Source: Escherichia phage Es2
Sequence record: OR515477.1
DNA length: 64,000 bases
Strand: one strand, 5' to 3'
Shown here: piece by piece, positions 4,964 to 34,096 of the stretch
Numbering within the stretch: position 1 is the first letter of the stretch
Layout: every line of letters starts with the position of its first letter
Position numbers and translations under genes: made by a program
The notes under the pieces: model-generated
Database searches by the model: none
What the model saw: only the letters and a program-made list of their open reading frames with translations
Told to the model about the DNA's origin: nothing

Positions 4964-5206
4964 TTACGATTCCTTGAGCAAAGAAGCAAGTTCAGCATAG
5001 ACTTTATCTAACTCAAAGCCTACGCGAAGAGACACGTTAGTTTTCCGTTGTTTAAGTAACCACTCGGATATGTTAGGGATGCCAGCTAGTCTATGCGGTA
5101 CCACCCTACATAGCTTTTCCGAAGTGTCGTAAACAGGAACTTTACGTTCTTTTACTGGAAACTTCCTTGTTTCCCATTTTTTATTCTTCACTGTCATTTC
5201 TAGCAC
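4964..5206 (-). CDS. hypothetical protein
   Basis: Six-frame ORF, 80 aa. Confidence 0.4.
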   Translation of the reverse strand: MLEMTVKNKKWETRKFPVKERKVPVYDTSEKLCRVVPHRLAGIPNISEWLLKQRKTNVSLRVGFELDKVYAELASLLKES

Positions 5207-7970
5207 CTAGCTCTGCCATTGCTTCATCATGCATATGTTTTTCCTCGTCAGTCATGAATTTATAAGGAATTGGCATACACTCGATTTTACAATAAGTTCT
5301 GTACCAGTCTACGATATTTTCAGTGTTCATATCTTTGCCAATACCCATCATACCAAGATACATTCTGGCATATTTTGGGTTAGCACTCTGACCTGTTTTA
5401 AGGAAGAAATCTTTCTTCTTACCTTTCAGAGCTTCTATGAATGGTTTGATAGTGACATTTGAACACTTCTTAATATCTTCCCAGAACATCTCATGCATCT
5501 TATGGAAGAACGCAGCTCGATCATTAGGTTTATCCTTGATATATTGTTCAACATGCTCAACTGTTACATCTTTAATAGACTCAAGATGATAATAGCGAAC
5601 AAGAAGTAGTTTAGCTTCATACGCATCTGCATGGCGTGGAGCACAATAGTCCGGAGTTGAGTGCAGAATAGCTTTGATTCGCTCTTCTGTATACTCTTTT
5701 CCTGCACCTTCGATAGTTCCCCAGCTTTCACTGAAAATATCAATAGTTGCTCCCTGATCAAGCAAGTAATAGCGTAAAGTACTAGTGTAGTTCCTAGATT
5801 CCAGCTCCCTACGACGTGCGTATAATTGCTGTGCTAACTCCAGCCAACCTTCATCAATGTTATATTGTTCAGAACCTGCTGAGAATCCACTCGTAGATTT
5901 ATCAATAAAATAATAAATGTTCTGAGCGCCACGGTCGCGCCTGATTGCTTGGAAACGCATGTTTGGCGCTTGATTACTGGTTCTAGTAATAACGAATACG
6001 TTATCAAAATAGTTAAAGTCAACGCCACTCGTTACGGATGGACTACATAATAAGCAATCAATTTGTTGATCAATTAGCTCATTAGTTGTGTAATCCAGAA
6101 TACGTCTAATATCTACATCAGACGTAGAATTTGAGTGAATTTCCTTAACTAACGCACCCGTATTACGACGCAGTGCCATACCCTTCTCATTCAGCTCATC
6201 AGGGCCACAGTCAGATACTAGAATAGACTTCTCCCCCATCTCTAGTGATGTTTGGAGTGCAACCCAAATACTAGATTCATCAGGAAACTCATAAGCATGG
6301 GCTTTTGACAGCATCTTACGGTGATGATTATAAAATGCGACCGGTTTATCAAACTCAATTAAAGAACCATATGCTTCAATTGTTTCTGCACTAATGTCCC
6401 CATCAGATAATATAATGATTTTTGCAGTTGCAAGAATATCCCGAAGAACCTGAATACATTCACGACGTTGCTTAACAACCGGGGCGAATAACAGGTCATT
6501 CATTACAGCATCACATTCATCGATAAAGATTGCATCTATTTGACCAATAAAACTCTTGAATTTATGCAAAGAGTGAATAGTTGTGGACATACGGTCAATA
6601 GCACCACGCTTAAAATTAAGCATATCTACAGACTTATCGTATTGTCCTGCACTAAATTTCTTAGCATTTGAGGATACCAGTGCTCGAGTATTGGTAATTG
6701 CTAAGAAATTACCTTTAATAACTCCCGAATCTAACCAACGCACAACCGCCGTAGTTTTACCTGTACCTAGACTTGCTTTTACAAAAGTCATATAGCCTTC
6801 TGGTGGTACAGTATTTAATTTCAAGAAGTTATCAGTCTCTAAAGAGTTAGTTTCTAGCTTTTTAAGTGGAATACCTTTTAAAACATCAGGTATATCACGT
6901 TTAGAATTATTAACAAACGCTTTCAGAGCCTGTTTTCTACCATTATTAAAGTAATCTTGAATATTACGACTATTATCTTTAGTTGCAATATATTCTGATA
7001 AGGCTGGGCGGATTTCTTTTTCTAGCCATGCAAAGTCAACACCATCCTCTAAAGCTCTGTGATAGAGTTTAGGTATGATACGTAGATACACTCCATCCTC
7101 AGCTTCTTCTAGTTCGCTGATAGTTTCCTCTACTTTATCAGAGGCAGCTTTTTTACCCTTAATTTGGTCGAGTAAAGAGTAGAACTCTTCTTTAAACTCA
7201 CCTCTAGTTGTTTCATAGTCAACCAGATTATTGGGTAAATTTACTTTAGAACCCTTAACAAATACCAGACGTGAAGCACCCTCCGCTTTAAACGGATCTA
7301 CTATACCATCAGTAAATAAAGGATCTGCAAAATAATGGAGCTGTACGGAAGAGTAATAAGCTAAGTCGGCAATATCAAAGCCATACTTTTGTCTACTACT
7401 TTCGTTGATAGATGTAAATAAGAATTTGATTTGACCCTGAGTTACTTTAACATTAGATTCTAGTATTAAGTGCATTCGGATACCTGGTTTTAGCCCAGCC
7501 GAAGACGATGCGTGAGCGATAAACCCTGCATCAAGAGGAAACATATCCTCACTAATACTATTTAACATTCTAATAATATGTCGAGCCATGCCAACAAGAT
7601 CAAACTTGTTACAACCACCTGTATCTACAATACCATCCACGTCCATTGCAATTATATGACTTGGATTAGATACATTAAAGTTGCCCTTCTTACGTCGCAC
7701 ATTATTTTTAGGTGCAAGACATCGACCTCGTACCGCAACGATATGAGGGTCAGACGTTAAACGTCTCATAAGAGGAAGCATTTCTACTAGGGTTTGAGGA
7801 TCAACTTCATCAATTACATCAAACTTGAAGGGCATTGAAGCTGGTTTACCTTCAGGATGCTTTGAGGAAAATCTTTTAGCAAAAAGATAGTCTTCTGCTT
7901 TAACTTCTCGCCAAATGCCTGTGGCTAAATCGCGATGAAATCCTGCATGACCTTGTAGGATTGAGAACAC
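5181..7970 (-). CDS. SF2-like helicase/ATPase (Walker A GTGKTT, DECD box)
   Basis: Walker A LGTGKTT and Walker B-like IFIDECDAV; track ORF begins at a TTG (8048) but a GTG about 7 nt after an AGGAG at ~7970 is the better start (position +/-1). Confidence 0.6.
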   Translation of the reverse strand: MFSILQGHAGFHRDLATGIWREVKAEDYLFAKRFSSKHPEGKPASMPFKFDVIDEVDPQTLVEMLPLMRRLTSDPHIVAVRGRCLAPKNNVRRKKGNFNVSNPSHIIAMDVDGIVDTGGCNKFDLVGMARHIIRMLNSISEDMFPLDAGFIAHASSSAGLKPGIRMHLILESNVKVTQGQIKFLFTSINESSRQKYGFDIADLAYYSSVQLHYFADPLFTDGIVDPFKAEGASRLVFVKGSKVNLPNNLVDYETTRGEFKEEFYSLLDQIKGKKAASDKVEETISELEEAEDGVYLRIIPKLYHRALEDGVDFAWLEKEIRPALSEYIATKDNSRNIQDYFNNGRKQALKAFVNNSKRDIPDVLKGIPLKKLETNSLETDNFLKLNTVPPEGYMTFVKASLGTGKTTAVVRWLDSGVIKGNFLAITNTRALVSSNAKKFSAGQYDKSVDMLNFKRGAIDRMSTTIHSLHKFKSFIGQIDAIFIDECDAVMNDLLFAPVVKQRRECIQVLRDILATAKIIILSDGDISAETIEAYGSLIEFDKPVAFYNHHRKMLSKAHAYEFPDESSIWVALQTSLEMGEKSILVSDCGPDELNEKGMALRRNTGALVKEIHSNSTSDVDIRRILDYTTNELIDQQIDCLLCSPSVTSGVDFNYFDNVFVITRTSNQAPNMRFQAIRRDRGAQNIYYFIDKSTSGFSAGSEQYNIDEGWLELAQQLYARRRELESRNYTSTLRYYLLDQGATIDIFSESWGTIEGAGKEYTEERIKAILHSTPDYCAPRHADAYEAKLLLVRYYHLESIKDVTVEHVEQYIKDKPNDRAAFFHKMHEMFWEDIKKCSNVTIKPFIEALKGKKKDFFLKTGQSANPKYARMYLGMMGIGKDMNTENIVDWYRTYCKIECMPIPYKFMTDEEKHMHDEAMAELGARNDSEE

Positions 7971-8469
7971 AACAATACTCCTGTGTTGGAAATAAAATAA
8001 GTTTTCTTTAGGACTATTCAGAAAGAATAGAACAACTGTTACTGTCAATTTCTCAACAAATTAATCGCAAATACTGAAGGGGGGTGGCAACTTCCCCTTT
8101 CACGCTACACTGCCGCTTCACTATACCGCACAAATCCTTGAGGATGGCCGCTAAGCCAGATTTGCTCACCTAATGCTTCATGTACTAGCTCATACTAGGT
8201 GCAGTATACCTTACGTCATCACTTCTCAGAGTTTTTCACTCTTCCCGTCTCACTTCACAACCACCTCACACTAGGTTGCTTCGAGGCCTTACCAGGGTTC
8301 CTACGGGATGTAGATCGCTAAGTATTCTATTAACTATTTGTTTAAAAACTAACACGTAACAGTTAAAACAACCCTTAATGGGGCAGCCTAACTGTTCCGT
8401 ATCGCGGATTGTAAACAAGAAAAATTAGTAAAATCAATTTTTACTAATGTCTCTCAATTCAATATAAAT

Positions 8470-8498
8470 ATTATATCAAGATTTTGGGCATCCTGCAA
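8470..8498 (-). promoter_or_regulatory. early-type sigma70 promoter (minus strand) upstream of helicase leader
   Basis: Reverse complement TTGCAG, 17 bp, TATAAT, then TTTATATTGAATTGAGAG. Confidence 0.55.
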
Positions 8499-8589
8499 GT
8501 AAAATTTTCCAGATGGTGCTATCATTGGTCTTGGGTACGGATAAAACCGAGCCAAAATGACTCGGTAATCGGGGTTCAGCTAATAAAAA

Positions 8590-8982
8590 TCATTCATCAT
8601 TTAATCCCGGAACATAGATCCCAACACGGCTTAATTGTTCTTTAGCTTCTGCGAGAATATCTGGAGTGTACTCCCAAATATCATCTTCCACCCGTAAAAG
8701 ATGGGGTGAACAACCATCATCCGGCACACGACATATGGCCAGACCACGTGGATGGAACAAAGAGAAATTTAGGGCAACAATCAAGCCCATAGCAGACAAT
8801 TCATTCCAATCCAATTCCCGTTCCCCGGCATATCCAGACAGGAAAACACCAATGCAGGGGTCATCTATTTGCTGCTCCGGAAAAGTGAAGGAGGCTTGTC
8901 TTACCCCCAACCAACGTTGTAGTAGCTTCTCCGCACGTCTCACCAAACTAGGGTCAATCTGACGCCAATATACTTGTTCCAT
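8590..8982 (-). CDS. hypothetical protein, paralog of 8992-9420
   Basis: Shares PCIG, W.EL..MGL..ALN..LF.P and G..VPGL blocks with the adjacent ORF. Confidence 0.55.
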   Translation of the reverse strand: MEQVYWRQIDPSLVRRAEKLLQRWLGVRQASFTFPEQQIDDPCIGVFLSGYAGERELDWNELSAMGLIVALNFSLFHPRGLAICRVPDDGCSPHLLRVEDDIWEYTPDILAEAKEQLSRVGIYVPGLNDE

Positions 8983-8991
8983 TCTGCCTCC

Positions 8992-9420
8992 TTAAGCAGT
9001 TAAACCTGGGATCATATACCCGAAACGTCGAAGTTTCTGAATCCCCTCATTTACTTCTTCCGGTGAGTAAGACCAACCATAACGTTCATTAACCTGAAAA
9101 CCAGGAGATTCACTAGTCTTATAGTTAACAACGAGGCGATGCTTAGCAGGCATAAACAGCTTATAGTTTAACGCAAAAACTAAGCCCATTTCATCTAGCT
9201 CTTTCCAGCCCACAATCTCTTCAAGACCATCCTCTACCTGCACAATTAAACCAATACATGGGGCCTCATCAATATCATCTTTAAAAGCAAAGGAGATTTC
9301 GTTATTCTCACACCATATTTTCAAAAAGTTAATAGCCTCATTATACAGGCTAGCCGGGAGAGTACGCCAAAAGTTAACCAAAATTGGGTTAGCTTCTTTA
9401 GAGAATACATTATTGAACAT
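8992..9420 (-). CDS. hypothetical protein, paralog of 8590-8982
   Basis: Tandem paralog; same conserved blocks. Confidence 0.55.
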   Translation of the reverse strand: MFNNVFSKEANPILVNFWRTLPASLYNEAINFLKIWCENNEISFAFKDDIDEAPCIGLIVQVEDGLEEIVGWKELDEMGLVFALNYKLFMPAKHRLVVNYKTSESPGFQVNERYGWSYSPEEVNEGIQKLRRFGYMIPGLTA

Positions 9421-9422
9421 AC

Positions 9423-9929
9423 TTACACCTTAAATTGTTGTAAGGATTTACACATTTCAAGATCTGGGCTAAATTCTAGCATATAGCTAACAGCTTTTAA
9501 ATCTTGAAGATTTACCCCAGTCCTACCATTGACTATAACCGTTGGATACTGGTACATCATAGCACCAGCATCATCCAGCACACACCAATGTTTGAGCTTA
9601 TGCTTTTCAACGAAGCGAAGAACAGAATTACCCCTAGATAATCCACCCCCGGTAAAATCCGTTGTACCAAGAAAACGATCGATAAGACCTAATCCGGTCA
9701 TAATCTGAACGTTCTCCATCTCATTTCTGACAGAGAACCAAGATGATACCCCAACAATCATTATTGAAGAGGGACGAATAAAATCCTGAAAAGCCTTGAG
9801 AAGTGGCTTAAAAACCCAATCACTTCCGAAGAAGATCTTTTCATCATCCGGCGCATGGTGGTGCGAGATGCTCGAATTGAGCACCCCATCAATATCTAGA
9901 AAAATAACTGGAGTATTACTTATTTCCAT
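9423..9929 (-). CDS. HAD-superfamily phosphatase-like protein
   Basis: N-terminal FLDIDGVLN (DxDG[TV] HAD motif I). Confidence 0.55.
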   Translation of the reverse strand: MEISNTPVIFLDIDGVLNSSISHHHAPDDEKIFFGSDWVFKPLLKAFQDFIRPSSIMIVGVSSWFSVRNEMENVQIMTGLGLIDRFLGTTDFTGGGLSRGNSVLRFVEKHKLKHWCVLDDAGAMMYQYPTVIVNGRTGVNLQDLKAVSYMLEFSPDLEMCKSLQQFKV

Positions 9930-26853: not shown

Positions 26854-26925
26854 GCCGTCCTAGTATAATTGGTATTATCAAGCCGTAACTGGTGGAAGAT
26901 GTAGGTTCGAATCCTACGGTCGGTA
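26854..26925 (+). tRNA. tRNA-like (isotype undetermined)
   Basis: T-arm GTAGG-TTCGAAT-CCTAC and acceptor GCCGTCC/GGTCGGT, but no clean anticodon arm. Confidence 0.35.
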
Positions 26926-27427
26926 AGAACTGGATAACTGATGCTTTTAACGTAAAAGCTTCCGAGGTTAGTTGCGCACTGCCTAAACCACGCGGTAGTT
27001 GGTTCCAGACTAACCAACCAGTCTGCTGAATAGTTTTATTACGATTTAACTATGTCCAGGCTAAAGAAGAACTTTAGAAAGTATTCTAGGATAGTGAAGT
27101 TCTTTCTCCATATCGGAGTAGTTTTTCAAGCTATCCATAAAGTGGGAAATGCTGGCATGAGAGATGCCACTAATGGTGCACAATAGCACAGGTAATTCGC
27201 GATAACTCCTGTTGAGTAGCAGCAAAAGGCGGGAAGTCATGACCCCAAGCCTAACCGAGTCCTCAATATACCGCAGGACATAACCACTAAGTCACCCTGA
27301 CTTAAACTGGAAAATAATAGACGTTACTGTATTTTGTCTTGAAATACTTAATGAGTGAGACTTATGACTCTCCCGGTATCGTCTGTATTTTTAAGAGTTT
27401 TTACGAGAGTTCTTAAAAATACTTAAA

Positions 27428-27499
27428 CGGGGTGTAGTCTAAGGGAGAGGCAGGAGTCTTCTAAATTCCTTTATGCAGGTTCGAATCCTGTCACCTCGG
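27428..27499 (+). tRNA. tRNA-Arg (anticodon TCT)
   Basis: Acceptor CGGGGTG/CACCTCG, anticodon loop CTTCTAA, T-arm GCAGG-TTCGAAT-CCTGT, CCA encoded. Confidence 0.7.
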
Positions 27500-27536
27500 C
27501 CAATTTTATTAACTGTAGCTAAAACAAAGGAAATAT

Positions 27537-28484
27537 ATGTTTAATACTAAAAATATGAAAGAACTGACTTCTGAGCAAAAAGTAATTCGCACTATTAAAC
27601 GTTGGGGTATTGGTGCTGTAGTTGGTTTAGCAGGTTTAGTTCTAGCTCTTAACTCCTATACCGTTGTTCAAGACGGTACTGTTAAGACCCAGACTTTCTT
27701 GGGTAAAGTTGATCCTAACCCTGTATTGCCGGGCTTTCATATTGTAAATCCTTTTGCTTCTTTTGATACTTTTAGTACTAAAGATATTGCTCTGAAATTA
27801 GATAAACTTCAGGTTCCTAGTCAGGATAAGTTTAAATCCACTGTTGACCTGACTGTTATGTTGCAGTTTGATGGTTCTAAAGCACCGATTAACCGTATTA
27901 ATGCAGGTACTCAGGATCAAGCATTAGACAAATATGTAACTGAAAAATTACTGTCTACTATTCGTGAGTTTGGTAAGTCTGTACCTAAAGCACAAGATTT
28001 ATTTGATGCTAAAATTCAGGCTCAATTGCAAACTGCAATTCAACAGGAAGTTGAAGAGTATGCACGCCCATATGGTTACACAGTTAAGCAGGTGTTTCTT
28101 CAGGATATTACTTTGCCACCGGTAATCATGGAACAGGTACAGAATACCAAAGTTCGTGAAGAACAGGTTAATGCTGCTAAAGCTGAATTAGCTCGTGTTG
28201 AACAGGAAGCACAGCAAAAAGTTAAACAAGCAGAAGCAGATCGTGAAGCTCGCAACAACCAAGCTATTGCTAACGAACGTGACGCAGATGCTAAGCTGTA
28301 TGCAGCTAAGAAAGAAGCTGAAGCTAACGCCGCATTGCAACGTACCATTACTCCTGAGATGATTCACTGGAAGCAACTGGAAGTTGAAATGATTCGTGCT
28401 CAGAAGTATCAGGGTGGTGTACCGCAGACTGTGGTTGGCACTGGCTATGATGGCCAAATGATTATGGATATGCGTAATAAATAA
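27537..28484 (+). CDS. SPFH/band-7 (prohibitin/HflKC-like) membrane protein
   Basis: N-terminal TM (WGIGAVVGLAGLVLAL), SPFH-like core, Ala/Gln/Glu-rich coiled-coil C-terminus. Confidence 0.6.
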   Translation: MFNTKNMKELTSEQKVIRTIKRWGIGAVVGLAGLVLALNSYTVVQDGTVKTQTFLGKVDPNPVLPGFHIVNPFASFDTFSTKDIALKLDKLQVPSQDKFKSTVDLTVMLQFDGSKAPINRINAGTQDQALDKYVTEKLLSTIREFGKSVPKAQDLFDAKIQAQLQTAIQQEVEEYARPYGYTVKQVFLQDITLPPVIMEQVQNTKVREEQVNAAKAELARVEQEAQQKVKQAEADREARNNQAIANERDADAKLYAAKKEAEANAALQRTITPEMIHWKQLEVEMIRAQKYQGGVPQTVVGTGYDGQMIMDMRNK

Positions 28485-28509
28485 TACCCGCATGTAACAT
28501 CTGAAGTAA

Positions 28510-28545
28510 GCCCTGCGTTTCCTGGAGAGCGCAGGGCTTTTCTAT
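28510..28545 (+). terminator. rho-independent terminator
   Basis: GCCCTGCG...CGCAGGGC hairpin followed by TTTTC. Confidence 0.6.
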
Positions 28546-28580
28546 ATAATGTATTTGTAAATCTAACTAGGAGATCAAAT

Positions 28581-29099
28581 ATGAATGTTGATGAGCTAAC
28601 ACAGCACCTCTTATCTAGAGGATTTGATACAGATAAATATCATTGCTGGTTAAGTCCAGCAGGGTGGCTAACAGTCCCGTTGTATGATTTCTCTGGGATG
28701 TTGAGGGGCTATCAAACTTATAATCCTTCTGCTCCAAAAGGTCATGGTAAGTGTCCCTTTGAAGCTAAATATTTTACCTATTCTACTACCCAGTGTGTAT
28801 GGGGATTAGAAACTCTCAATGGAGATGAAAAAGTAGTATTGGTCGCTGAATCTGTATTTAAGGCAGTTGCGTTACATAATGCTGGTTATCCAGCCCTAGC
28901 AATGTTGGGTTCTTCTCCAGGAAAAGCGTTATTAAAGCAACTGAAATTATTACCTTTTAAATTGGTAGCTGTCGGGGATAACGATCCTGCGGGTGAAAAA
29001 TTTGCTAGAAAATTAAACGGCTTTGTTTCTCCTGTAGATGTGGATGAGATGTCTACCGAAAACTTGAAAAATTTTCTTGCTATGAAGCTAAATTTCTAA
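28581..29099 (+). CDS. hypothetical protein
   Basis: 172 aa ORF with AGGAG RBS. Confidence 0.5.
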   Translation: MNVDELTQHLLSRGFDTDKYHCWLSPAGWLTVPLYDFSGMLRGYQTYNPSAPKGHGKCPFEAKYFTYSTTQCVWGLETLNGDEKVVLVAESVFKAVALHNAGYPALAMLGSSPGKALLKQLKLLPFKLVAVGDNDPAGEKFARKLNGFVSPVDVDEMSTENLKNFLAMKLNF

Positions 29100-29120
29100 T
29101 ATAATATATCTTATAAATTC

Positions 29121-29206
29121 GGAAGAATAGCATAATGGTATTGCAGCAGATTGCTAATCTGTCGGTTTGAAATATAGCCTTGTGGGTTCGATTCCCACTT
29201 CTTCCG
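29121..29206 (+). tRNA. tRNA-Ser (anticodon GCT)
   Basis: Acceptor GGAAGAA/TTCTTCC, anticodon loop TTGCTAA, long variable arm, T-arm GTGGG-TTCGATT-CCCAC, CCA encoded. Confidence 0.75.
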
Positions 29207-29215
29207 CCAGATTTT

Positions 29216-29290
29216 GGTTCTCAAGCTCATATGGTATGAGCACCCGGCTCATAACCGGAAGGTACGTAGGTTCGAATCCTCGGGGAGCCA
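29216..29290 (+). tRNA. tRNA-Met/Ile2 (anticodon CAT)
   Basis: Acceptor GGTTCTC/GGGAGCC, anticodon loop CTCATAA, TTCGAAT T-loop (T-stem imperfect), CCA encoded. Confidence 0.6.
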
Positions 29291-29312
29291 CCAACTTATT
29301 TAGGAGCTACAA

Positions 29313-29501
29313 GTGGAACTATACATAGTTTATGTTGTGTTTATTCAAGATAGAGAATATCCGGATGAGTATAAACAAGGGTATAGGTTAGCCAGGGCTA
29401 CCTCTGAAGCACAAGCTATGGATAAAGTAGCTGAGTATATGATTATGGTAGAAAATGTACACTATATCGACTCACTTGAAGCCTCAAAAGTAATTGAATA
29501 A
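29313..29501 (+). CDS. hypothetical protein
   Basis: 62 aa ORF. Confidence 0.4.
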   Translation: MELYIVYVVFIQDREYPDEYKQGYRLARATSEAQAMDKVAEYMIMVENVHYIDSLEASKVIE

Positions 29502-29510
29502 GGAGACTGT

Positions 29511-29696
29511 ATGTCCAAGTTTCAAGAACTCAAGCAAGAGCTAGAAGAATGTGCCTGCCCTGAGTGTAGGGGAATTGGTGAAAGTTCTGATGCAGAAGCA
29601 GGAGATACTTTTTGCAATATCTGGGTTTGCCCAAATTGCAATGGTACAGGTATTAATCCTAACTGTGGTATTTCTCTAGATATTGAAAGGGGATAA
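29511..29696 (+). CDS. small zinc-ribbon protein
   Basis: CACPECRG...CPNCNG paired CxxC motifs, AAGGAG RBS. Confidence 0.5.
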   Translation: MSKFQELKQELEECACPECRGIGESSDAEAGDTFCNIWVCPNCNGTGINPNCGISLDIERG

Positions 29697-29797
29697 TATC
29701 TGTGAAACTAAAAGATTATTATATTGGTTGGTTTGTGGGACTAGTAGTAGGATTTTCACTAGGCTATAATATGTATCAACTAATAAACTGATTACAC

Positions 29798-29871
29798 GGG
29801 GGTGTAATCGAATTGGCATAGGTACTGGACTTAAAATTCAGGTTTTGTGGGTTCGAATCCCACCACCCCTA
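29798..29871 (+). tRNA. tRNA with anticodon TAA (Leu-decoding; class I architecture)
   Basis: Acceptor GGGGGTG/CACCCCT, anticodon loop CTTAAAA, short variable arm, T-arm GTGGG-TTCGAAT-CCCAC, CCA encoded. Confidence 0.55.
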
Positions 29872-30049
29872 CCAAATTAAGGAAATAAGATGTATAGACA
29901 TCCACCTCCGCCAACACGTCGTTCTAGAGAAGTTATCCTCATGGAATTGACTAAAAACTTCAAGGCAACTCTTGAAGATAGAGATTTAGGCACGGATGAA
30001 GACATTGATTTTATTTGTAGACTATTAAAGATGAAATTGGAGAAACAAC

Positions 30050-30256
30050 ATGGCTAATCCTGAAATTACCGCACAACGTTTCATGCTTAAAGGCATGATT
30101 GCTGAAGCAGGTATGACTCAAGAGGTTGCAGACTTTCATAAGCAATTTCTTGATATTATAACTCTAGCTAAGGAGACTGGAGAAAAAGAGCACGCAGCAG
30201 CAATTATGGCTATATCTCTTATTAGTCTAGACTTGGCTGAAGAATCTGGAGTTTAG
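30050..30256 (+). CDS. hypothetical protein
   Basis: 68 aa ORF. Confidence 0.45.
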   Translation: MANPEITAQRFMLKGMIAEAGMTQEVADFHKQFLDIITLAKETGEKEHAAAIMAISLISLDLAEESGV

Positions 30257-30285
30257 CTCCTCCAAACAGAATTTTTAAAAATGTA

Positions 30286-30315
30286 CTTGCCTTTTGCTTT
30301 AAATTTCTGATATAA
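30286..30315 (+). promoter_or_regulatory. early-type sigma70 promoter
   Basis: TTGCCT, 18 bp, TATAAT. Confidence 0.5.
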
Positions 30316-30346
30316 TAGTTATATAAATTAATGAAGGAGTTAACAA

Positions 30347-30622
30347 ATGCAAAATCGTGTTATAGCAACTGGTATTGAAAGTGCAATCTGTAAATCCTGG
30401 GAAGGCTGGGAAGGTGAGATTGAATGGCTTTATTTCTACGATGTAGAACTTCTGCCGGAAGTTAAAGCTAAATGTGTTGAAGCTGGCATGGCTCCAGATG
30501 CAAAAGCTGATATTGATATTTCAATGTCTGAACTTAAAGGCCGTGTAATTACTGTTAGTGATGAGGGCGAAGAAGTTTTCGAACTTCCGTTCTCCTTAAC
30601 TGTCACTCCTAAGTTCGACTAA
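30347..30622 (+). CDS. hypothetical acidic protein
   Basis: 91 aa ORF, AAGGAG RBS after promoter 30286-30315. Confidence 0.5.
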   Translation: MQNRVIATGIESAICKSWEGWEGEIEWLYFYDVELLPEVKAKCVEAGMAPDAKADIDISMSELKGRVITVSDEGEEVFELPFSLTVTPKFD

Positions 30623-30658
30623 CTAATACAGCACTGAGCAAGTTCTTTAAAATTTGAC

Positions 30659-30687
30659 TTGCTCAGTGCCTTAAAACTTGGTATAAT
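30659..30687 (+). promoter_or_regulatory. early-type sigma70 promoter overlapping a 12 bp-stem hairpin
   Basis: TTGCTC, 17 bp, TGGTATAAT; -35 lies inside the inverted repeat GCACTGAGCAAG...CTTGCTCAGTGC (30631-30669). Confidence 0.55.
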
Positions 30688-30705
30688 AGTTATCTAATTT
30701 GGAAA

Positions 30706-30812
30706 CATATTTGAATGAGAAGTAACTAAGCGAGTTGCTTTGAGGGGTAAAGTCAGGATAGCCTGAAATATTCCACCTTGAGTTTAACCGACTTACTTTT
30801 CATTCAAATATG
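30706..30812 (+). ncRNA. long hairpin element (20 bp stem enclosing 67 nt) at start of tRNA-Tyr transcript
   Basis: CATATTTGAATGAGAAGTAA (30706-30725) pairs with TTACTTTTCATTCAAATATG (30793-30812); lies between promoter -10 (30682-30687) and tRNA-Tyr. Confidence 0.4.
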
Positions 30813-30890
30813 GGGGGGTTGGCTCAGAGGCGACGGCGCCTGGCTGTAGACCGGGTATACCACGCGGAGGTTCGAGTCCTCCATCCCCCA
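30813..30890 (+). tRNA. tRNA-Tyr (anticodon GTA)
   Basis: Acceptor GGGGGGT/ATCCCCC, anticodon loop CTGTAGA, extended variable region, T-arm GGAGG-TTCGAGT-CCTCC, CCA encoded. Confidence 0.6.
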
Positions 30891-30911
30891 CCAAATTACT
30901 AAGGAAATAAT

Positions 30912-31457
30912 ATGCACAATAAGTTAATAAATGAACTTCAAAAAAGACAAATAATAACAAAAACTAAGGAGTTTGATATAACTCCGGATTTAATAGTTGA
31001 ATGTTCGAAAGTTTACTTAGAGTTAAGTAACACAAAGGCTAAGAAAGTCTCTTTAGGAGATCTTAGATATAATGTTAAACTATTGTGCCTATCCTTAATT
31101 AAATTTAAGCAAGAAAATAAACTTCTCATAAAAGAAGGTTTCATATATTTTATAGCAAATAAGGCGTGGCCCAATTATTTTAAGATTGGTATGTCAGCTA
31201 ACCCAAAGAAACGTCTGGCTAACTATCAAACATATAGTCCTTTTAGGGATTATACAATGCTACACTGGTCTTTCTGGTTTGACAGAAAGGAAGGTGAAAA
31301 ATTTGTACATAGTCTCTACCAAGACAGAGATCATGAATGGGTTAGGCTGCCACAAAGAAAACTAAATAAAATATTTGAGCAAATAAATAAACTTTCTGGC
31401 CTAGAACACTTGGTACAGAAAGTTAATAGAGAAATAGTTAATGCACCTATCGTCTAA
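30912..31457 (+). CDS. GIY-YIG-like (T5orf172-type) domain protein
   Basis: FIYFIANKAWPNYFKIGMSANPKKRLANYQTYSP resembles the GIY-YIG/T5orf172 fold; 3' end overlaps tRNA-Glu. Confidence 0.5.
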   Translation: MHNKLINELQKRQIITKTKEFDITPDLIVECSKVYLELSNTKAKKVSLGDLRYNVKLLCLSLIKFKQENKLLIKEGFIYFIANKAWPNYFKIGMSANPKKRLANYQTYSPFRDYTMLHWSFWFDRKEGEKFVHSLYQDRDHEWVRLPQRKLNKIFEQINKLSGLEHLVQKVNREIVNAPIV

Positions 31458-31514
31458 TGGTTAGGACATCAGGATTTCAATCTGAGAATCGGAGTTCAAT
31501 TCTCCGTGGGTGTA
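31443..31514 (+). tRNA. tRNA-Glu (anticodon TTC)
   Basis: Acceptor GCACCTA/TGGGTGT, anticodon loop ATTTCAA, T-arm CGGAG-TTCAATT-CTCCG, CCA encoded. Confidence 0.7.
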
Positions 31515-31523
31515 CCAAATTCT

Positions 31524-31599
31524 GCATTCCTAGAGTGTTACTGGACAGCATGTCGGTCTCCAAAACCGTACGGTCTAGGTTCGAGTCCTAGTAGGTTTG
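31524..31599 (+). tRNA. tRNA-like, possible tRNA-Trp (anticodon CCA)
   Basis: Good T-arm CTAGG-TTCGAGT-CCTAG and anticodon loop CTCCAAA, but acceptor stem pairing is poor; ends approximate. Confidence 0.35.
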
Positions 31600-31608
31600 C
31601 CAAAATTT

Positions 31609-31680
31609 GCACCTTTAGCTGAGATGGATTAGCGCTTGCCTGAAGAGCTTGAGAGGTTCGTTCGATTCGAACAGGGTGCA
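31609..31680 (+). tRNA. tRNA, possible tRNA-Phe (anticodon GAA)
   Basis: Acceptor GCACCTT/AGGGTGC, T-arm GTTCG-TTCGATT-CGAAC, CCA encoded; anticodon stem weak (loop CTGAAGA). Confidence 0.5.
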
Positions 31681-31685
31681 CCAAT

Positions 31686-31973
31686 TTGAGGGAGCTGCTG
31701 ATGCATCCTGAAAACTTCTTTATTTACTGCGCTGATAAGTCGCTGAAACGTAGAATTAACAAAGTCTATCATTATAGTGCTAGTCAACAGCCTTATGTAT
31801 ACGCTTTTGACGGTGATCACATTCCACTAGAACAATTATCTTGTGATTACATGATATTGAAGAACTTTGATGAGACGAAGATCTCGAGCGTTCATAATCG
31901 ACAGAATCCATTGACGTGGAAATATAAGAAGAAAAAGAAAGGCATCAAATTCTTAAAAAATGTAGTTGCTTAG
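31686..31973 (+). CDS. hypothetical protein
   Basis: 95 aa ORF; a promoter overlaps its 3' end. Confidence 0.45.
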   Translation: MRELLMHPENFFIYCADKSLKRRINKVYHYSASQQPYVYAFDGDHIPLEQLSCDYMILKNFDETKISSVHNRQNPLTWKYKKKKKGIKFLKNVVA

Positions 31974-31994
31974 TTTCCAAAAGTTCTGTATAAT
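31966..31994 (+). promoter_or_regulatory. early-type sigma70 promoter
   Basis: TTGCTT, 17 bp, TGTATAAT. Confidence 0.6.
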
Positions 31995-32005
31995 AATTAC
32001 ATAAA

Positions 32006-32248
32006 TTGAACTGGAGAAGCAACATGACAGAACAAGAATTGAATGAACGTAAGCTGGTAATGCTTCGCTTACTAAATATTTTCTCTGGTATGGACGGTGG
32101 AATTGACTTTGTTCATCTACGTTCTTTCGTAGAAGAAGCTGAAGGCGAATCTATCACTAAAATCCTTAAACACATGGGATTACTTTTAGATGCTGCTAAT
32201 GTGGCTACTGAATATAAAATAGAAGATCTACCGGAGCGTGTTAAATGA
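32006..32248 (+). CDS. hypothetical protein
   Basis: 80 aa ORF after promoter 31966-31994. Confidence 0.5.
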   Translation: MNWRSNMTEQELNERKLVMLRLLNIFSGMDGGIDFVHLRSFVEEAEGESITKILKHMGLLLDAANVATEYKIEDLPERVK

Positions 32249-32436
32249 AACGATTAGTTAGATTTAAGTGTTGTGGTTCCGAGCACATTTTCACACATCT
32301 TCGTGAATTTAAAATGTGTGATTGTGGTAAATCAGGCTATGACTCAGGAGATGGGTTCTACACCCGTACTCTAGGGAACTTCAATGATCTAGAATTTGAA
32401 GATCTCGAAAAACAAGATAAACCGACCGTTGGCTGA
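32245..32436 (+). CDS. small Cys-rich protein
   Basis: 63 aa, CCGSEH...CDCG motif; 3' end overlaps tRNA-Cys. Confidence 0.45.
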   Translation: MKRLVRFKCCGSEHIFTHLREFKMCDCGKSGYDSGDGFYTRTLGNFNDLEFEDLEKQDKPTVG

Positions 32437-32495
32437 ATGGCTTAGGCGAAGGATTGCAAATCCTTTTTATGTGAGTTCAAATCTCATGCGGTCGT
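32423..32495 (+). tRNA. tRNA-Cys (anticodon GCA)
   Basis: Acceptor CGACCGT/GCGGTCG, anticodon stem-loop AAGGA-TTGCAAA-TCCTT, T-arm GTGAG-TTCAAAT-CTCAT, CCA encoded. Confidence 0.7.
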
Positions 32496-32501
32496 CCAAT
32501 T

Positions 32502-32640
32502 TGCTGAAAGAATTGTTAAATCAATTCAGGCACGCGTAGGAACACTGTCTCCGTAATTGAAAGATGAGGCACGGTTTGGAGAGGTATGCCGCTACACGCT
32601 ACGGTGCTAACTCCGTCTAGGTGAAAATCCTAGTCAGCAA
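32502..32640 (+). ncRNA. long tRNA-like element (~139 nt)
   Basis: 7 bp acceptor-like pairing TTGCTGA/TCAGCAA, D-arm-like hairpin GAATTG-TTAAAT-CAATTC, T-arm-like CTAGG-TGAAAAT-CCTAG; no ORF. Confidence 0.35.
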
Positions 32641-32650
32641 TATAAATTTA

Positions 32651-32730
32651 GGGTCGTTAGCCAAGCGGTTTGGCGGTGGACTGTTAATCCATGTCGAAAG
32701 ACAACGTAGGTTCGAATCCTACACGGCCCG
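32651..32730 (+). tRNA. tRNA-Asn (anticodon GTT)
   Basis: Acceptor GGGTCGT/ACGGCCC, anticodon loop CTGTTAA, extended variable region, T-arm GTAGG-TTCGAAT-CCTAC, CCA encoded. Confidence 0.65.
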
Positions 32731-32835
32731 CCAAATTCTGTGTAGAGTTAAGTAAACCGGTAGCCAACCAGCTATCATTGCTGATATCGAATTCAGCCAC
32801 AGATACCATTTTCATTAATAACTGAGGAAACAAGC

Positions 32836-33021
32836 ATGTCCAAGAATGTAATTGCACAGCTAGAAGTTCATCGTGATAACACAGCTAATAACATTAAGTG
32901 CCGACAAAAAGATATTGAAGCTCGAAAGGCTGATCTTTTAATGAGTATTCGAGAGCTTAATGTACGGAAAGAGTTTCTTAAAGAACTTAATGCAGCTATT
33001 GAAAAACTCAAAGTTGAGTAA
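32836..33021 (+). CDS. hypothetical protein
   Basis: 61 aa ORF, coiled-coil-like. Confidence 0.4.
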   Translation: MSKNVIAQLEVHRDNTANNIKCRQKDIEARKADLLMSIRELNVRKEFLKELNAAIEKLKVE

Positions 33022-33030
33022 ATAAATTAT

Positions 33031-33104
33031 GCGACCGGGGCTGGCTTGGTAATGGTACTCCCCTGTCACGGGAGGGAATGTGGGTTCAAATCCCATCGGT
33101 CGCG
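33031..33104 (+). tRNA. tRNA-Asp (anticodon GTC)
   Basis: Acceptor GCGACCG/CGGTCGC, anticodon stem-loop CTCCC-CTGTCAC-GGGAG, T-arm GTGGG-TTCAAAT-CCCAT, CCA encoded. Confidence 0.75.
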
Positions 33105-33132
33105 CCAAATTAATTTAGTATGAGAATATACT

Positions 33133-33480
33133 ATGCGTAATGCTAAAGAAGAGTTGTTACTTGCCTTAAAAAATACTAATTCTGAAGTTAAATGTATTAA
33201 AATAGAATTCGGGTATTATGGGGATAAAAAAGTTTGGGTATTACCTTTAGGTTATACAGAAAAAGATATTGAGGATTTTCTTAATAATCTAGACTTTAAG
33301 TACGATTCTGGGTATGGTGGGCAATTACTTTATGGTAATGTATGGTTTGCCGACGGAACTTGGCTAGAACGTGGGGAATACGATGGTGCTGAGTGGTGGG
33401 AGTACAAAGCTACCCCGGAAATTCCAGAGGAATGCCGAACAATTAATGGTGAAGTAGATAATACTTTACTATTAAACTAA
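33133..33480 (+). CDS. hypothetical protein
   Basis: 115 aa ORF. Confidence 0.5.
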   Translation: MRNAKEELLLALKNTNSEVKCIKIEFGYYGDKKVWVLPLGYTEKDIEDFLNNLDFKYDSGYGGQLLYGNVWFADGTWLERGEYDGAEWWEYKATPEIPEECRTINGEVDNTLLLN

Positions 33481-33602
33481 AAGAATTTCAGTGCAGAACA
33501 CGGAGCTAGCAATTCGGAAGTGCTGACTCATGATAAGCTGCCTATGTACTTGCTAAGCGGTCGTGTCCAAGACTCGGACTCTTGCACTGAAAACAATCAA
33601 AC

Positions 33603-33723: not shown

Positions 33724-33731
33724 ACACTATA

Positions 33732-33859: not shown

Positions 33860-33872
33860 ATTAAAAATTCAT

Positions 33873-33901: not shown

Positions 33902-33933
33902 ATATTTTATAAAGTGAAGAGAAGGAAAGCAAA

Positions 33934-34092: not shown

Positions 34093-34096
34093 TATT

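What the first reader, a model, noticed from the sequence alone, without database searches (positions are those of the whole stretch)
7970..8470. Helicase gene with a ~400 nt GC-richer, ORF-free structured leader
Between minus-strand promoter 8470-8498 and the helicase start (~7970-8048) lies about 400 nt with no ORF on either strand, clearly higher GC than the surroundings, and a strong hairpin (AAGGGG...CCCCTT at 8075-8100). This could be a cis-regulatory leader (riboswitch or thermosensor-like), a small RNA, or the remnant of an intron or mobile insertion.
Basis: seen in the sequence. Interest (0 to 1): 0.5.

Follow-up and report, generated by a model that had tools for sequence, protein, structure and literature searches.

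The report
Conserved structured RNA upstream of helicase
The roughly 450 bases in front of this T5-like phage's replication helicase gene encode a conserved, intricately folded RNA that matches no catalogued RNA family; its job is unknown, and my best guess is control of helicase production or of the start of replication.

Summary
The window is a T5-like phage (98% identical to phiLLS). The gene is T5 D2, the bipolar helicase proposed as replication initiator. A conserved T5 early-type promoter (8498-8470, minus strand) precedes about 490 nt with no conserved ORF.

This stretch is a real structured RNA:
- a 5'-terminal hairpin;
- a hairpin carrying the near-invariant ACGGAACAGUUAGGCUGCCCCA;
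- a roughly 35-bp long-range A/U-rich rod (8365-8321 with 8075-8033);
- a multi-helix core with an invariant UUAGCG hexaloop.

Nine sequence clusters from Escherichia, Salmonella, Yersinia, Klebsiella, Pectobacterium and Providencia phages keep the helices while their sequences change. On a structure-blind alignment 81.8% of cells pair against 73.7% in shuffles. On a model-guided sub-domain the figures are 86.8% against 61.5%, with 16 of 17 pairs compensatory.

Rfam 15 has no match. There is one copy per window and none in E. coli genomes.

Function is inferred only. Most likely it is a cis-acting, protein-recognised leader of the D2 mRNA. The rivals are an excised trans-acting RNA and an origin primer or R-loop RNA. 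An intron or mobile remnant, a small ORF and a thermosensor are rejected.

The parts
8543..8565 (-). Terminator-like hairpin (CCGAG-9 nt-CUCGG, then UUUU) that ends the upstream DUF7415 / RNA-repair gene block. It separates that block from the RNA unit.
   Evidence: Read from the sequence. It is conserved, with a compensated variant in the Klebsiella phage (CCAGGGG..CCCCUGG), in alignment A1. The simple scan did not call it because the loop is 9 nt.
8470..8498 (-). T5 early-type sigma-70 promoter: -35 TTGCAG 8498-8493, 17-nt spacer, extended -10 TG 8478-8477, -10 TATAAT 8475-8470. The predicted start is near 8463.
   Evidence: One search gives the sequence. TTGC and TATAAT are invariant in 8 diverse phages. 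The T5 record annotates it as a putative promoter. A fresh promoter sits at the same distance after an HNH gene insertion in JLBYU40. The transcription start is inferred, not mapped.
8417..8455 (-). T0: 5'-terminal hairpin. GAGAGA/UUUCUU (8455-8450 with 8422-8417) plus AUUAGUAAAA/UUUUACUAAU (8448-8439 with 8433-8424).
   Evidence: It is helix 1: 83.6% of cells paired, and 6 of 16 pairs change on both sides. Inverted repeat I3.
8368..8412 (-). H1: hairpin ACAAUCC...GGGUUGU enclosing the near-invariant ACGGAACAGUUAGGCUGCCCCA (8400-8379) and an inner CAGU-UAG-GCUG stem.
   Evidence: helices 2-4, 92-99% paired. The inner stem changes from CAGU/GCUG to CGGU/GCCG in L087. Model R2 finds a single copy in the window at 63 bits. 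The motif occurs once in 64 kb, with 0 expected by chance.
8321..8365 (-). 5' strands of the long-range rod: P1 8365-8356, P1b 8354-8344, P1c 8342-8338, P1d 8336-8332, P2 8327-8321.
   Evidence: P1 is UAACUGUUAC/GUAACAGUUG here, GAUUAUUAUACAG/CUGUAUAAUAAUU in L039, 23 bp in L087 and UCUAACCACAUA/UAUGUGGUUAGG in Providencia. helix 5: the outer 10 pairs are almost always paired, with many double changes.
8033..8075 (-). 3' strands of the long-range rod: P2 8075-8069, P1d 8066-8062, P1c 8059-8055, P1b 8053-8043, P1 8042-8033.
   Evidence: Same as the 5' strands. Inverted repeats I1 and I7.
8102..8318 (-). Multi-helix core:
- P3a/P3: 8318-8308 with 8110-8102.
- P4 three-way junction: 8307-8303 with 8248-8244, containing P4a, P4b and P4c.
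- P5 hairpin: 8242-8228, followed by the conserved UGAGAAGUG (8227-8219).
- P6: 8201-8167.
- P7: 8165-8158 with 8137-8130.
   Evidence: P3 is CUACAU/GUGUAG here, CUGCGU/GCGCAG in 91%-identical L021, CUGUGU/GCACAG in T5 and CUAGAAU/GUUCUAG in the Klebsiella phage. helix 7: 95.9% paired, and 6 of 7 pairs change on both sides.
8146..8157 (-). P7a hairpin GGC-UUAGCG-GCC. CUUAGCGG is invariant in all 47 aligned relatives.
   Evidence: invariant columns. In one search the enclosing P7 has 8 of 8 pairs with changes on both sides.
8077..8099 (-). P9 hairpin AAGGGG-AAGUUGCCACC-CCCCUU. It sits on the 3' side between P3 and P2.
   Evidence: In one search, helix 3 has 6 of 6 pairs changing on both sides.
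8014..8030 (-). P10 hairpin CUAUUC-UUUCU-GAAUAG, directly after the rod. No U-run follows, so it is not a canonical terminator.
   Evidence: helix 22: 91.6% paired, 4 of 6 pairs with double changes. No terminator is called here.
7966..7987 (-). Translation initiation region of D2: a small hairpin AACAC (7987-7983) / GUGUU (7970-7966), with the Shine-Dalgarno AGGAG (7982-7978) in the loop and the GUG start in the stem.
   Evidence: Read. The Klebsiella phage has AACAU/AUGUU, and Proteus and My1 have AACA/UGUU. Inference from a few sequences; not tested statistically.
5181..7970 (-). D2 gene: SF2 bipolar helicase, annotated 'replication origin binding protein', 929 aa.
   Evidence: Pfam Herpes_ori_bp and PHROG 3712. 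The T5 D2 annotation. PDB UL9-type origin-binding proteins. Biochemistry in PMC3632103.

Best explanation
This is a previously uncatalogued family of large structured RNA, specific to T5-like phages of Enterobacterales.

Shown:
- A conserved strong early promoter lies directly upstream.
- About 450 nt then fold, on the helicase-sense strand, into T0, H1, a roughly 35-bp long-range rod and a multi-helix core.
- The helices are kept by compensatory change, while several loops and junctions are nearly invariant: ACGGAACAGUUAGGCUGCCCCA, the UUAGCG hexaloop, UGAGAAGUG and the GUUGCCA loop.

Inferred:
- In this phage no other promoter and no terminator lies between the element and GTG 7970. The element is therefore transcribed as the 5' part of the D2 helicase mRNA.
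- It most likely acts in cis as a protein-recognised leader that sets how much D2 is made from a very strong promoter. This could work through mRNA stability, processing or translation.
- The binding protein could be D2 itself or another replication protein, by analogy with autogenous control of T4 genes 32 and 43.
- The long A/U-rich duplex is a plausible RNase III processing site. Cleavage there would separate the folded domain from the coding part.
For: Identity and context.

Promoter.

A 590-716 nt noncoding gap upstream of D2 in every genus examined.

Structure:
- Consistent folds and helix lists.
- Structure-blind MAFFT alignment of 47 sequences: 81.8% paired against 73.7% shuffled (0 of 500 shuffles reach it); covariation 0.243 against 0.144, and 0.05-0.11 when slid; 79 of 131 pairs change on both sides.
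- Model-guided alignment of P7, P7a and P9: 86.8% against 61.5%, covariation 0.574 against 0.185, 16 of 17 pairs compensatory.
- T5-type sequences that were not in the seed are recovered.

Strand: 136 G.U against 57 A.C in the predicted pairs.

Not coding.

Single copy.

For the cis reading: the element has the same position and strand directly upstream of D2 in all genera. No promoter or terminator lies between it and the D2 start in this window apart from a weak 9-of-12 site inside T0. D2 is a proposed initiator whose dose plausibly matters.
Against: No experiment bears on function, and there are no transcript ends.

No conserved pairing between the element and the Shine-Dalgarno or start codon was found. 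The CCUC-type loop in P7 is not conserved in T5 or the Klebsiella types.

In Proteus phage Stubb a perfect 12-of-12 promoter lies between the RNA-like region and the helicase gene. In Vibrio T5-like phages two terminators lie there. Co-transcription is therefore not universal, although homology of those regions to this RNA is unproven.

The size and loop conservation resemble stand-alone non-coding RNAs more than typical bacterial leaders.

P6, P8 and the inner part of H1 are not well supported.
Confidence: 0.42

Rival explanations
1. Stand-alone (excised) non-coding RNA acting in trans. The element is a gene in its own right. It is released from the primary transcript, for example by RNase III at the rod P1-P1b or by other processing, and it binds a host or phage partner. 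That partner could be a scaffold, a sponge or decoy target, an anti-defence target or a ribonucleoprotein component. Lying in front of D2 would then be only convenient for expression.
For: Its size, multi-junction architecture and near-invariant loops resemble those of large non-coding RNAs.

It always has its own strong promoter, which is re-created after an HNH insertion.

A flanking duplex of 20 bp or more is conserved in length.

Proteus phage has a perfect separate promoter for the helicase downstream of the element. Vibrio and Aeromonas relatives have terminators between their long noncoding region and the helicase gene, obp.

No Shine-Dalgarno-sequestering switch was found.
Against: No terminator follows the element in this phage or its close relatives.

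H1, the most conserved part, lies outside the rod, so cleavage there would separate it from the core.

The strict positional link to D2 in all genera is not needed for a trans-acting RNA.

The Proteus, Aeromonas and Vibrio regions are not demonstrably homologous (E about 0.1 or nothing).

No target or partner was identified.
Confidence: 0.27
2. Origin-associated RNA. Transcription from the strong promoter through this region activates or primes replication next to the initiator gene. The folded transcript would govern formation of a persistent RNA-DNA hybrid, or recruit D2, in the way ColE1 RNA II or the T4 and T7 origin transcripts work.
For: D2 is homologous to herpesvirus origin-binding helicases and has been proposed as the T5 replication initiator. 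Origins often lie next to initiator genes (general knowledge).

The locus lies near the middle of full-length T5-like genomes, at about 59-60 kb of 120-122 kb.

The RNA is G- and purine-rich: plus-strand GC skew is -0.32 at 8100-8299.

A long noncoding region upstream of the helicase gene (obp) persists even in Vibrio and Aeromonas T5-like phages whose sequence is unrelated.
Against: No iterons or obvious unwinding element are present. There are only short two-copy repeats.

The cumulative GC-skew minimum of the window is near 14 kb, not here, and it follows gene orientation.

There is a single copy, whereas electron microscopy reported multiple T5 origins (cited in PMC3632103).

A simple R-loop origin does not need this much conserved tertiary-looking structure.
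Confidence: 0.17
3. Metabolite- or temperature-sensing leader: a riboswitch or RNA thermometer controlling D2.
For: It is a long structured 5' leader with conserved unpaired nucleotides. H1 is followed by UUUU in several types. In the window and T5 types, the H1 motif GGAACAGUUA can alternatively pair with the 5' strand of P1 (I5).
Against: No Rfam riboswitch matches, even at E up to 10.

No conserved terminator/antiterminator or Shine-Dalgarno-sequestering alternative exists.

The H1-P1 alternative pairing is lost in polluks, L039, My1 and the Klebsiella types.

The Shine-Dalgarno lies in an A/U-rich region outside the large fold.

At about 390 nt the element is far larger than known aptamers.
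Confidence: 0.05
4. The structure acts as single-stranded DNA: a primosome or primase loading signal like the single-strand origins (ssoA) of rolling-circle plasmids.
For: The invariant hairpin loop UUAGCG contains TAGCG, 5 of the 6 bases of the ssoA CS-6 consensus TAGCGT. CS-6 also sits in a hairpin loop (PMC4598088). The pairing pattern is strand-specific.
Against: The second defining ssoA element, RSB, is absent.

A strong promoter and a hairpin placed right at the predicted transcript 5' end argue for RNA.

Frequent G.U pairs are better tolerated in RNA.

T5 does not replicate by a plasmid-type rolling circle from a nick site here (general knowledge).
Confidence: 0.03
5. Not a functional element: a decayed intron or mobile insertion, a missed small protein gene, or a chance fold.
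For: T5-like genomes carry many HNH homing endonucleases, and one is inserted next to this region in JLBYU40. Small ORFs of 38-50 aa exist.
Against: The element is present at the same site in all enterobacterial T5-like genera sampled, with compensatory evolution. No intron family matches. The ORFs are not conserved and there is no codon periodicity. Fold z-scores are -2.7 to -3.4.
Confidence: 0.02

Closest known systems
Large structured non-coding RNAs of unknown or recently emerging function found in phages and bacteria (GOLLD, ROOL, OLE, raiA; Rfam families)
   Same: Several hundred nucleotides long, with many covarying helices, multi-way junctions and invariant loop nucleotides. Phage-borne, like GOLLD and ROOL. 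Function cannot be deduced from the sequence.
   Different: No sequence or structure match to any of the 4227 Rfam 15 models. It has a different host range (virulent T5-like phages of Enterobacterales). It is fixed directly upstream of one particular gene, on the same strand and without a terminator. GOLLD and ROOL tend to lie near tRNA genes (from memory).
Autogenous translational operators in phage replication-gene leaders (T4 gene 32 pseudoknot, T4 gene 43 hairpin operator)
   Same: A structured 5' leader of a phage replication-protein mRNA. The proposed logic is the same: the protein binds its own leader to limit synthesis.
   Different: Those operators are tens of nucleotides long and overlap the ribosome-binding site. 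This element is about 390-450 nt and ends about 50 nt before the Shine-Dalgarno. Binding by D2 is untested. The comparison rests on textbook knowledge, not on a test made here.
ColE1 RNA II and the transcript-dependent origins of T4 (oriF, oriG) and T7 (primary origin)
   Same: A strong promoter drives a structured, G-rich transcript next to replication functions. In ColE1 the RNA's secondary structure decides function.
   Different: No RNase H or hybrid-forming motifs, antisense RNA I-like partner, iterons or unwinding element were identified. Origin activity at this locus is unknown.
RNase III processing stems flanking rRNAs and T7 early mRNAs
   Same: A long-range duplex of 20 bp or more closes a large folded domain. 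Its length is conserved while its sequence covaries.
   Different: Cleavage has not been shown. The duplex here is interrupted by single-nucleotide bulges and is A/U-rich.
ssoA single-strand origins of rolling-circle plasmids (RSB plus CS-6 TAGCGT)
   Same: A structured region of about 200-300 nt with a conserved TAGCG-containing hairpin loop (PMC4598088).
   Different: RSB is absent. The sixth base differs (G, not T). Here a promoter produces RNA, the replicon type is different, and there is no rolling-circle Rep.

Membership tests
Any Rfam 15 family (riboswitches, T-box, RNase P, tmRNA, 6S, group I/II introns, GOLLD, ROOL, HEARO and others) | A covariance-model match at or near the family's gathering score | tested here: not met
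   The gathering-threshold scan of the whole window finds only 24 tRNA matches, all at 26.8-37.9 kb. An E-value scan of 7800-8700 up to E = 10 gives only chance snoRNA and lncRNA fragments of 18 bits or less. The relatives' loci are also negative.
Riboswitch | A conserved aptamer coupled to an expression platform: a terminator/antiterminator pair, or sequestration of the Shine-Dalgarno by alternative pairing | tested here: not met
   No terminator lies between the element and D2. No conserved anti-Shine-Dalgarno exists. The one alternative pairing seen, H1 against P1 (I5), is not conserved in other types. Ligand binding cannot be tested here.
RNA thermometer | The Shine-Dalgarno or start codon is held in a marginally stable helix that is part of the element | tested here: not met
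   The large fold ends at 8033 (P1) and 8014 (P10). The Shine-Dalgarno at 7982-7978 sits in the loop of a separate 5-bp hairpin.
Group I / group II intron or intron remnant | Intron core motifs, flanking exons of an interrupted gene, and patchy distribution among relatives | tested here: not met
   No Rfam intron hit. The element lies between two complete genes. It is present in all 47 enterobacterial T5-like loci examined.
Bacterial RNase P RNA | The conserved P4 pseudoknot regions (CR-I, CR-V) in the right order, and a covariance-model match | tested here: not met
   By eye there are short resemblances to E. coli M1 RNA as recalled from memory (UAGGCUGC, GGCUUAnCGG). My estimate is that they are at chance level for RNAs of this size and that they come in the wrong order. 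The RNase P models did not match at E up to 10.
ssoA single-strand origin | RSB (about TTATGCCGAGAAAATTT) together with CS-6 (TAGCGT) in a hairpin loop | tested here: not met
   The loop has a CS-6-like TAGCG, 5 of 6 bases. RSB is absent from the whole window with up to 3 mismatches allowed.
ColE1 RNA II-type primer / R-loop origin | Origin activity at the locus, a persistent RNA-DNA hybrid, and RNase H processing | not testable with these tools
   Only circumstantial evidence exists: the neighbouring initiator-like gene, a G-rich transcript and no iterons.
RNase III processing stem | About 20 bp or more of near-continuous duplex, and cleavage in vivo | tested here: inconclusive
   The duplex is predicted and covaries. 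P1 plus P1b is 21 bp with one bulge here, 23 bp continuous in L087 and 16 bp in My1. Cleavage is untested.
Small protein gene | A conserved ORF with codon-periodic substitution | tested here: not met
   ORF positions and strands differ between the nine clusters. Variable sites per codon phase are 18/15/13 in cluster A and 9/13/11 in cluster B.
The new family itself (T5-like D2-leader RNA) | H1 with ACGGAACAGUUAGGCUGCCCCA, a long-range rod, the P3 / P7 / UUAGCG hairpin / P9 core, and a position upstream of D2 | tested here: met
   The window matches R1 at 98.4 bits and R2 at 63 bits, one copy each. All helices are listed.

The most novel reading that the evidence does not exclude
The element is a new class of large functional phage RNA rather than a passive leader. 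One possibility is that it is the RNA component of T5 replication initiation: a folded transcript that recruits or is used by the D2 initiator-helicase at a transcription-activated origin, which would be an RNA II-like mechanism in a virulent phage. The other is that it is an excised, stable RNA that binds a conserved host factor, acting for example as an anti-defence decoy or as a scaffold. The near-invariant UUAGCG, ACGGAACAGUUAGGCUGCCCCA and GAAGUG elements would be the recognition sites.
Probability: 0.35. Interest if true: 0.85.

Novelty: new variant of a known kind. Interest (0 to 1): 0.62.

Why it matters
T5 is a classic model phage. T5-like phages are among the most commonly isolated coliphages and Salmonella phages, and they are used in therapy and biocontrol. 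Even so, how T5 starts replication and how D2 is controlled remain unknown.

A conserved RNA of about 400 nt with tertiary-looking structure, sitting on the transcript of the proposed initiator, offers a concrete and mutable handle on that question.

Large structured RNAs without a known function are rare, and they have repeatedly led to new biochemistry. This one lies in a genetically tractable phage-host pair.

There is also a practical point for annotation. Several GenBank records place spurious small ORFs or an over-extended helicase start (the TTG at 8048) inside it.

Tried and rejected
1. Rfam scans at gathering and E-value thresholds on the window and on the relatives found nothing.

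2. Small conserved ORF: rejected.

3. RNase P-like resemblance, seen by eye: judged to be chance, and there was no covariance-model hit.

4. A helix search in wide position windows with shuffles gave weak p-values for short helices. That test ignores register, so I replaced it with alignment-based counts.

5. The search for homologous proteins with the D2 N-terminal domain returned only 2 fragments, so it could not supply diverse loci.

6. The metagenome scan gave only 10 loci, 3 of them divergent. The IMG/VR pattern scan gave only the same T5-like contigs.

7. The motif-pair pattern in bacterial genomes gave 20 hits in unrelated high-GC taxa. Model R1 scores them as noise, so they are chance matches.

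8. The AlphaFold model of D2 residues 1-390 from a single sequence was unusable (pLDDT 34), so no fold search was run. Pfam finds nothing in this domain. My impression that it looks like an archaeo-eukaryotic primase (AEP-type; 'AMDVDG' and 'HASSSAG' motifs) is from memory and untested.

9. Models R1 and R2 do not significantly detect the noncoding regions upstream of the helicase gene (obp) in Proteus, Aeromonas or Vibrio T5-like phages. Homology there is unproven.

10. Iterons and an unwinding element as signs of an origin were not found. GC skew is uninformative.

11. Literature searches found no description of this RNA. Rad, the T5-family anti-retron factor, is a protein.

12. Pairing between H1 and the P9 loop was rejected: T5 keeps H1 but has a different P9 loop.

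Full report
**What the window is**

BLAST of 7900-8650 finds 535 phage records, all T5-like (Demerecviridae). The best is Escherichia phage phiLLS at 98.4%. The window also carries the typical cluster of 23-24 tRNA genes at 26.8-37.9 kb.

The 'helicase' (5181-7970, minus strand) is the T5 D2 protein. The evidence is Pfam Herpes_ori_bp, PHROG 3712 'replication origin binding', PDB matches to herpesvirus origin-binding proteins, and the label D2 in the T5 record. D2 has been characterised as a bipolar SF2 helicase and proposed as the T5 replication initiator (PMC3632103).

The upstream genes on the same strand are two DUF7415 proteins and a HAD domain of the 'Swiss Army Knife' RNA-repair type. 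They end at 8590 and are followed by a terminator-like hairpin at 8565-8543.

**Checking the observation**

The generic scan misses it because the -35 is TTGCAG. TTGC and TATAAT are nevertheless invariant in eight divergent phages, and the T5 record marks a putative promoter there.
- *Start codon.* The real start is GTG 7970, with AGGAG 8 nt upstream. The TTG at 8048 is only where the open frame begins.
- *ORFs.* There is no ORF of 60 aa or more. The 38-50 aa ORFs are not conserved in position or strand, and substitutions show no codon periodicity.
- *GC content.* It is 0.43-0.485 inside the region, against 0.33-0.41 in the helicase gene. The upstream genes are about as GC-rich.
- *Hairpin.* The AAGGGG/CCCCTT hairpin is at 8099-8094 / 8082-8077.

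**The gap is a family trait**

A noncoding gap of 590-716 nt lies upstream of D2 in T5, DT57C, polluks (Epseptimavirus), Yersinia phiR2-01, Klebsiella JIPh_Kp127 (Sugarlandvirus), Pectobacterium My1 and Providencia PSTCR5.

Aligning these regions gives islands of near-invariant sequence: ACGGAACAGUUAGGCUGCCCCA, CUUAGCGG, and a hairpin before the Shine-Dalgarno. Between the islands the sequence diverges strongly but the length is preserved. The spacing between the first two islands is 224-239 nt in all loci.

**Structure**

I collected 56 loci (48 distinct sequences, nine clusters at 80% identity) from GenBank phages, IMG/VR and metagenomes. Independent minimum-energy folds of each type, and RNAalifold within the two large clusters, give the same architecture:

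- T0, a 5'-terminal hairpin that begins about 8 nt after the predicted transcription start.
- H1, which holds the first invariant island.
- A long-range A/U-rich rod (P1, P1b, P1c, P1d, P2) pairing 8365-8321 with 8075-8033.
- P10, after the rod.

The helices keep their place while their sequences change completely.

| Helix | Variants seen |
|---|---|
| P7 | GCAAAUCU/GGAUUUGU (window); UGGGUGCGGG/CCUGCACUUG; GAUACGGG/CUCGUAUU; CCACAUGG/CUGUGUGG; GAUUGAGG/CCUCAAUU; AAUAGAAUC/GGUUCUAUU (T5); CCACCU/AGGUGG (Providencia) |
| P3 | CUACAU/GUGUAG (window); CUGCGU/GCGCAG in a 91%-identical relative; CUGUGU/GCACAG in T5 |

**Statistics**

*Structure-blind alignment.* I used a MAFFT alignment of 47 sequences that knew nothing of the structure, with the window's helices projected onto it.

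| Measure | Observed | Shuffled | Partner slid by 1-3 columns |
|---|---|---|---|
| Cells paired | 81.8% | 73.7% (0 of 500 shuffles reach it) | 34-47% |
| Covariation score | 0.243 | 0.144 (0 of 500) | 0.05-0.11 |
| Pairs changed on both sides (of 131) | 79 | 51 | 41-58 |

MAFFT misplaces the T5-type strands by a few columns in P4, P7 and P9, so these figures are conservative.

*Model-guided alignment.* A covariance model of P7, P7a and P9 built from 12 sequences (R1) recovers all 47 loci, including the T5-type sequences that were not in the seed (E about 6e-5). On its alignment 86.8% of cells pair against 61.5% shuffled, the covariation score is 0.574 against 0.185, and 16 of 17 pairs change on both sides. 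That alignment leans towards the model by construction.

*Other measures.* Predicted pairs hold 136 G.U against 57 A.C, so the fold belongs to the helicase-sense strand. Fold z-scores are -2.73 for the leader and -3.37 for the core.

*Weak parts.* P6, P8 and the interior of H1 beyond CAGU/GCUG are poorly supported. A register-free helix search with shuffles was uninformative for short helices.

**Distribution**

There is one copy in the 64-kb window by R1, by R2 (an H1 model) and by motif search. Nothing is found in 5,426 complete E. coli genomes. Pattern hits in bacterial genomes are chance.

Family members are found in Tequintavirus, Epseptimavirus, Sugarlandvirus, Myunavirus, Priunavirus and two unnamed lineages (L039, L087).

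Proteus phages (L042) show helices at the expected places and the UUAGCG hairpin, but they lack H1 and score only E about 0.1. Aeromonas and Vibrio T5-like phages also have 600-1600 nt of noncoding sequence with promoters upstream of the helicase gene, obp. Homology there is not demonstrable.

**What it is not**

- It matches no Rfam 15 family.
- It is not a protein gene.
- It is not an intron or mobile remnant: it is universal in position, evolves by compensation and is single-copy.
- It is not an ssoA: RSB is absent, although the loop shares TAGCG with CS-6.
- It is not RNase P RNA: there is no model hit, and by my estimate the short similarities are at chance level.
- No iterons are present.

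**How it probably works**

*What is shown.* A strong promoter lies upstream. A conserved fold sits on the sense strand. No terminator and no good promoter lie between the fold and GTG 7970 in this phage. The invariant nucleotides concentrate in loops and junctions.

*What is inferred.* D2 must be transcribed through the element, so the element is at least physically the D2 leader. The invariant loops point to recognition by a conserved partner.

*My preferred reading (about 0.4).* It is a cis-acting, protein-recognised leader that sets D2 output, through stability, processing or translation, and possibly autogenously. The rod of 20 bp or more looks like an RNase III site. Cleavage there could both release the folded domain and leave the D2 message with P10 near its 5' end.

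*Against a purely cis role.* Proteus phage Stubb has perfect promoters both before the RNA-like region and between it and the helicase gene. Vibrio relatives have tandem terminators there. No pairing that sequesters the Shine-Dalgarno is conserved.

*Rivals.* I therefore keep two serious rivals: an excised trans-acting RNA (about 0.27) and an origin-associated primer or R-loop RNA next to the initiator gene (about 0.17). A riboswitch or thermosensor, a single-stranded-DNA signal and 'no function' are minor.

**Novelty**

I found no description in the searchable literature and none in Rfam 15. A 2023 catalogue of more than 10,000 candidate viral structured RNAs (PMC10690425) does not mention T5, Demerecviridae or helicase in its text, and its tables were not available. 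An unnamed prior prediction therefore cannot be excluded.

I rate it a new family within a known kind: large structured phage RNA, or structured leader.

Noticed in passing
L006 (DT57C) 1458-1550; also L010 (phiR2-01), L011, L032, L041: An optional module of about 92 nt (AGTGAAGCTGACAAGGGATTTACGG...CCCGTAAAT...) sits between T0 and H1. It occurs in some phages of both the window type and the T5 type and in Yersinia phiR2-01, and it duplicates the TTTTTCTT junction. It predicts its own hairpins and does not occur elsewhere in the window.
   Followed up: partly
L003 (JLBYU40) 1701-2200: An HNH endonuclease gene with its own promoter is inserted between the upstream operon and the RNA. A new TTGCAA...TATAAT promoter directly precedes the RNA, so the element keeps a dedicated promoter.
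   Followed up: yes
L042 (Proteus phage Stubb) 705-733 and 1435-1464: Two perfect 12-of-12 sigma-70 promoters: one before the RNA-like region and one between it and the helicase start. The roughly 200 nt in between are annotated as small hypothetical proteins in the record.
   Followed up: partly
L050 (Aeromonas phage vB_AdhS_TS3) 218-1809: A 1.6-kb stretch without annotated genes lies upstream of the helicase gene (obp). It holds two CUUAGCGG hairpins closed by P7-like helices (locus positions about 697 and 941) and a third UUAGCGG. A terminator-like hairpin (CCUAGCC...GGCUAGG followed by a U-run, read by eye) lies just before obp. There is no internal sequence repeat.
   Followed up: partly
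L046 (Vibrio phage D260) 955-1400; L048 (Vibrio phage 234P1) 1320-1920: Vibrio T5-like phages have a noncoding region of about 450-550 nt behind a TTGCAT...TATTCT/TATTAT promoter. It has a conserved 5' block (AAUCGAA..GGACUC..AAUUAAGUCAAUA.GCCAGAGAGC..GGAAAGU). In 234P1 two tandem intrinsic terminators lie before obp, and D260 shows terminator-like hairpins by eye. This may be an analogous RNA. Neither model detects it.
   Followed up: partly
window 7966-7987: A small hairpin AACAC/GUGUU holds the Shine-Dalgarno in its loop and the GUG start codon in its stem. The Klebsiella phage has AACAU/AUGUU, so the change of start codon from GUG to AUG is matched upstream.
   Followed up: partly
window 8389-8400 with 8354-8365: The H1 motif ACGGAACAGUUA is complementary to the 5' strand of P1 (UAACUGUUACGU) and is nearly identical to the P1 3' strand (GUAACAGUUG). 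This allows an alternative co-transcriptional pairing in the window and T5 types. It is not conserved in polluks, L039, My1 or the Klebsiella phage.
   Followed up: partly
window 8250-8259 and 8219-8228: The motif UG(U/A)GAAGUGA occurs twice, each time just 3' of a hairpin (P4c and P5). GAAGUG-like copies recur at both places in L039 and L087. This may be a two-site protein-binding motif.
   Followed up: no
window 8048; L003 2611: Some GenBank records start the helicase at the upstream in-frame TTG (equivalent to 8048), which extends the CDS into the RNA rod. Others annotate small hypothetical ORFs inside the RNA region, e.g. vB_SenS-AKM_HA2021_32 and PMBT31, which list 4-5 hypothetical proteins under the match. 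These are probable mis-annotations.
   Followed up: partly
window 8593-9929: The upstream neighbours on the same strand are two DUF7415 paralogues and a HAD_SAK_2 ('Swiss Army Knife' RNA repair) domain protein, with a Sir2-like gene further up in relatives. This is an RNA-repair or NAD-related block next to a large RNA. A terminator separates the two, so no link was established.
   Followed up: no
window 26854-37912: A cluster of 23-24 tRNA genes lies on the plus strand, opposite in orientation to the replication genes. The cumulative GC-skew minimum of the window, near 14 kb, marks the switch in transcription direction.
   Followed up: no
window 6801-7970 (D2 residues 1-390): The N-terminal 390 residues of D2 match no Pfam family, and the single-sequence AlphaFold model failed (pLDDT 34). 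Some records call the protein 'DNA primase'. Whether this domain binds DNA or RNA, or is a primase, remains open, and the answer matters for the RNA's role.
   Followed up: partly
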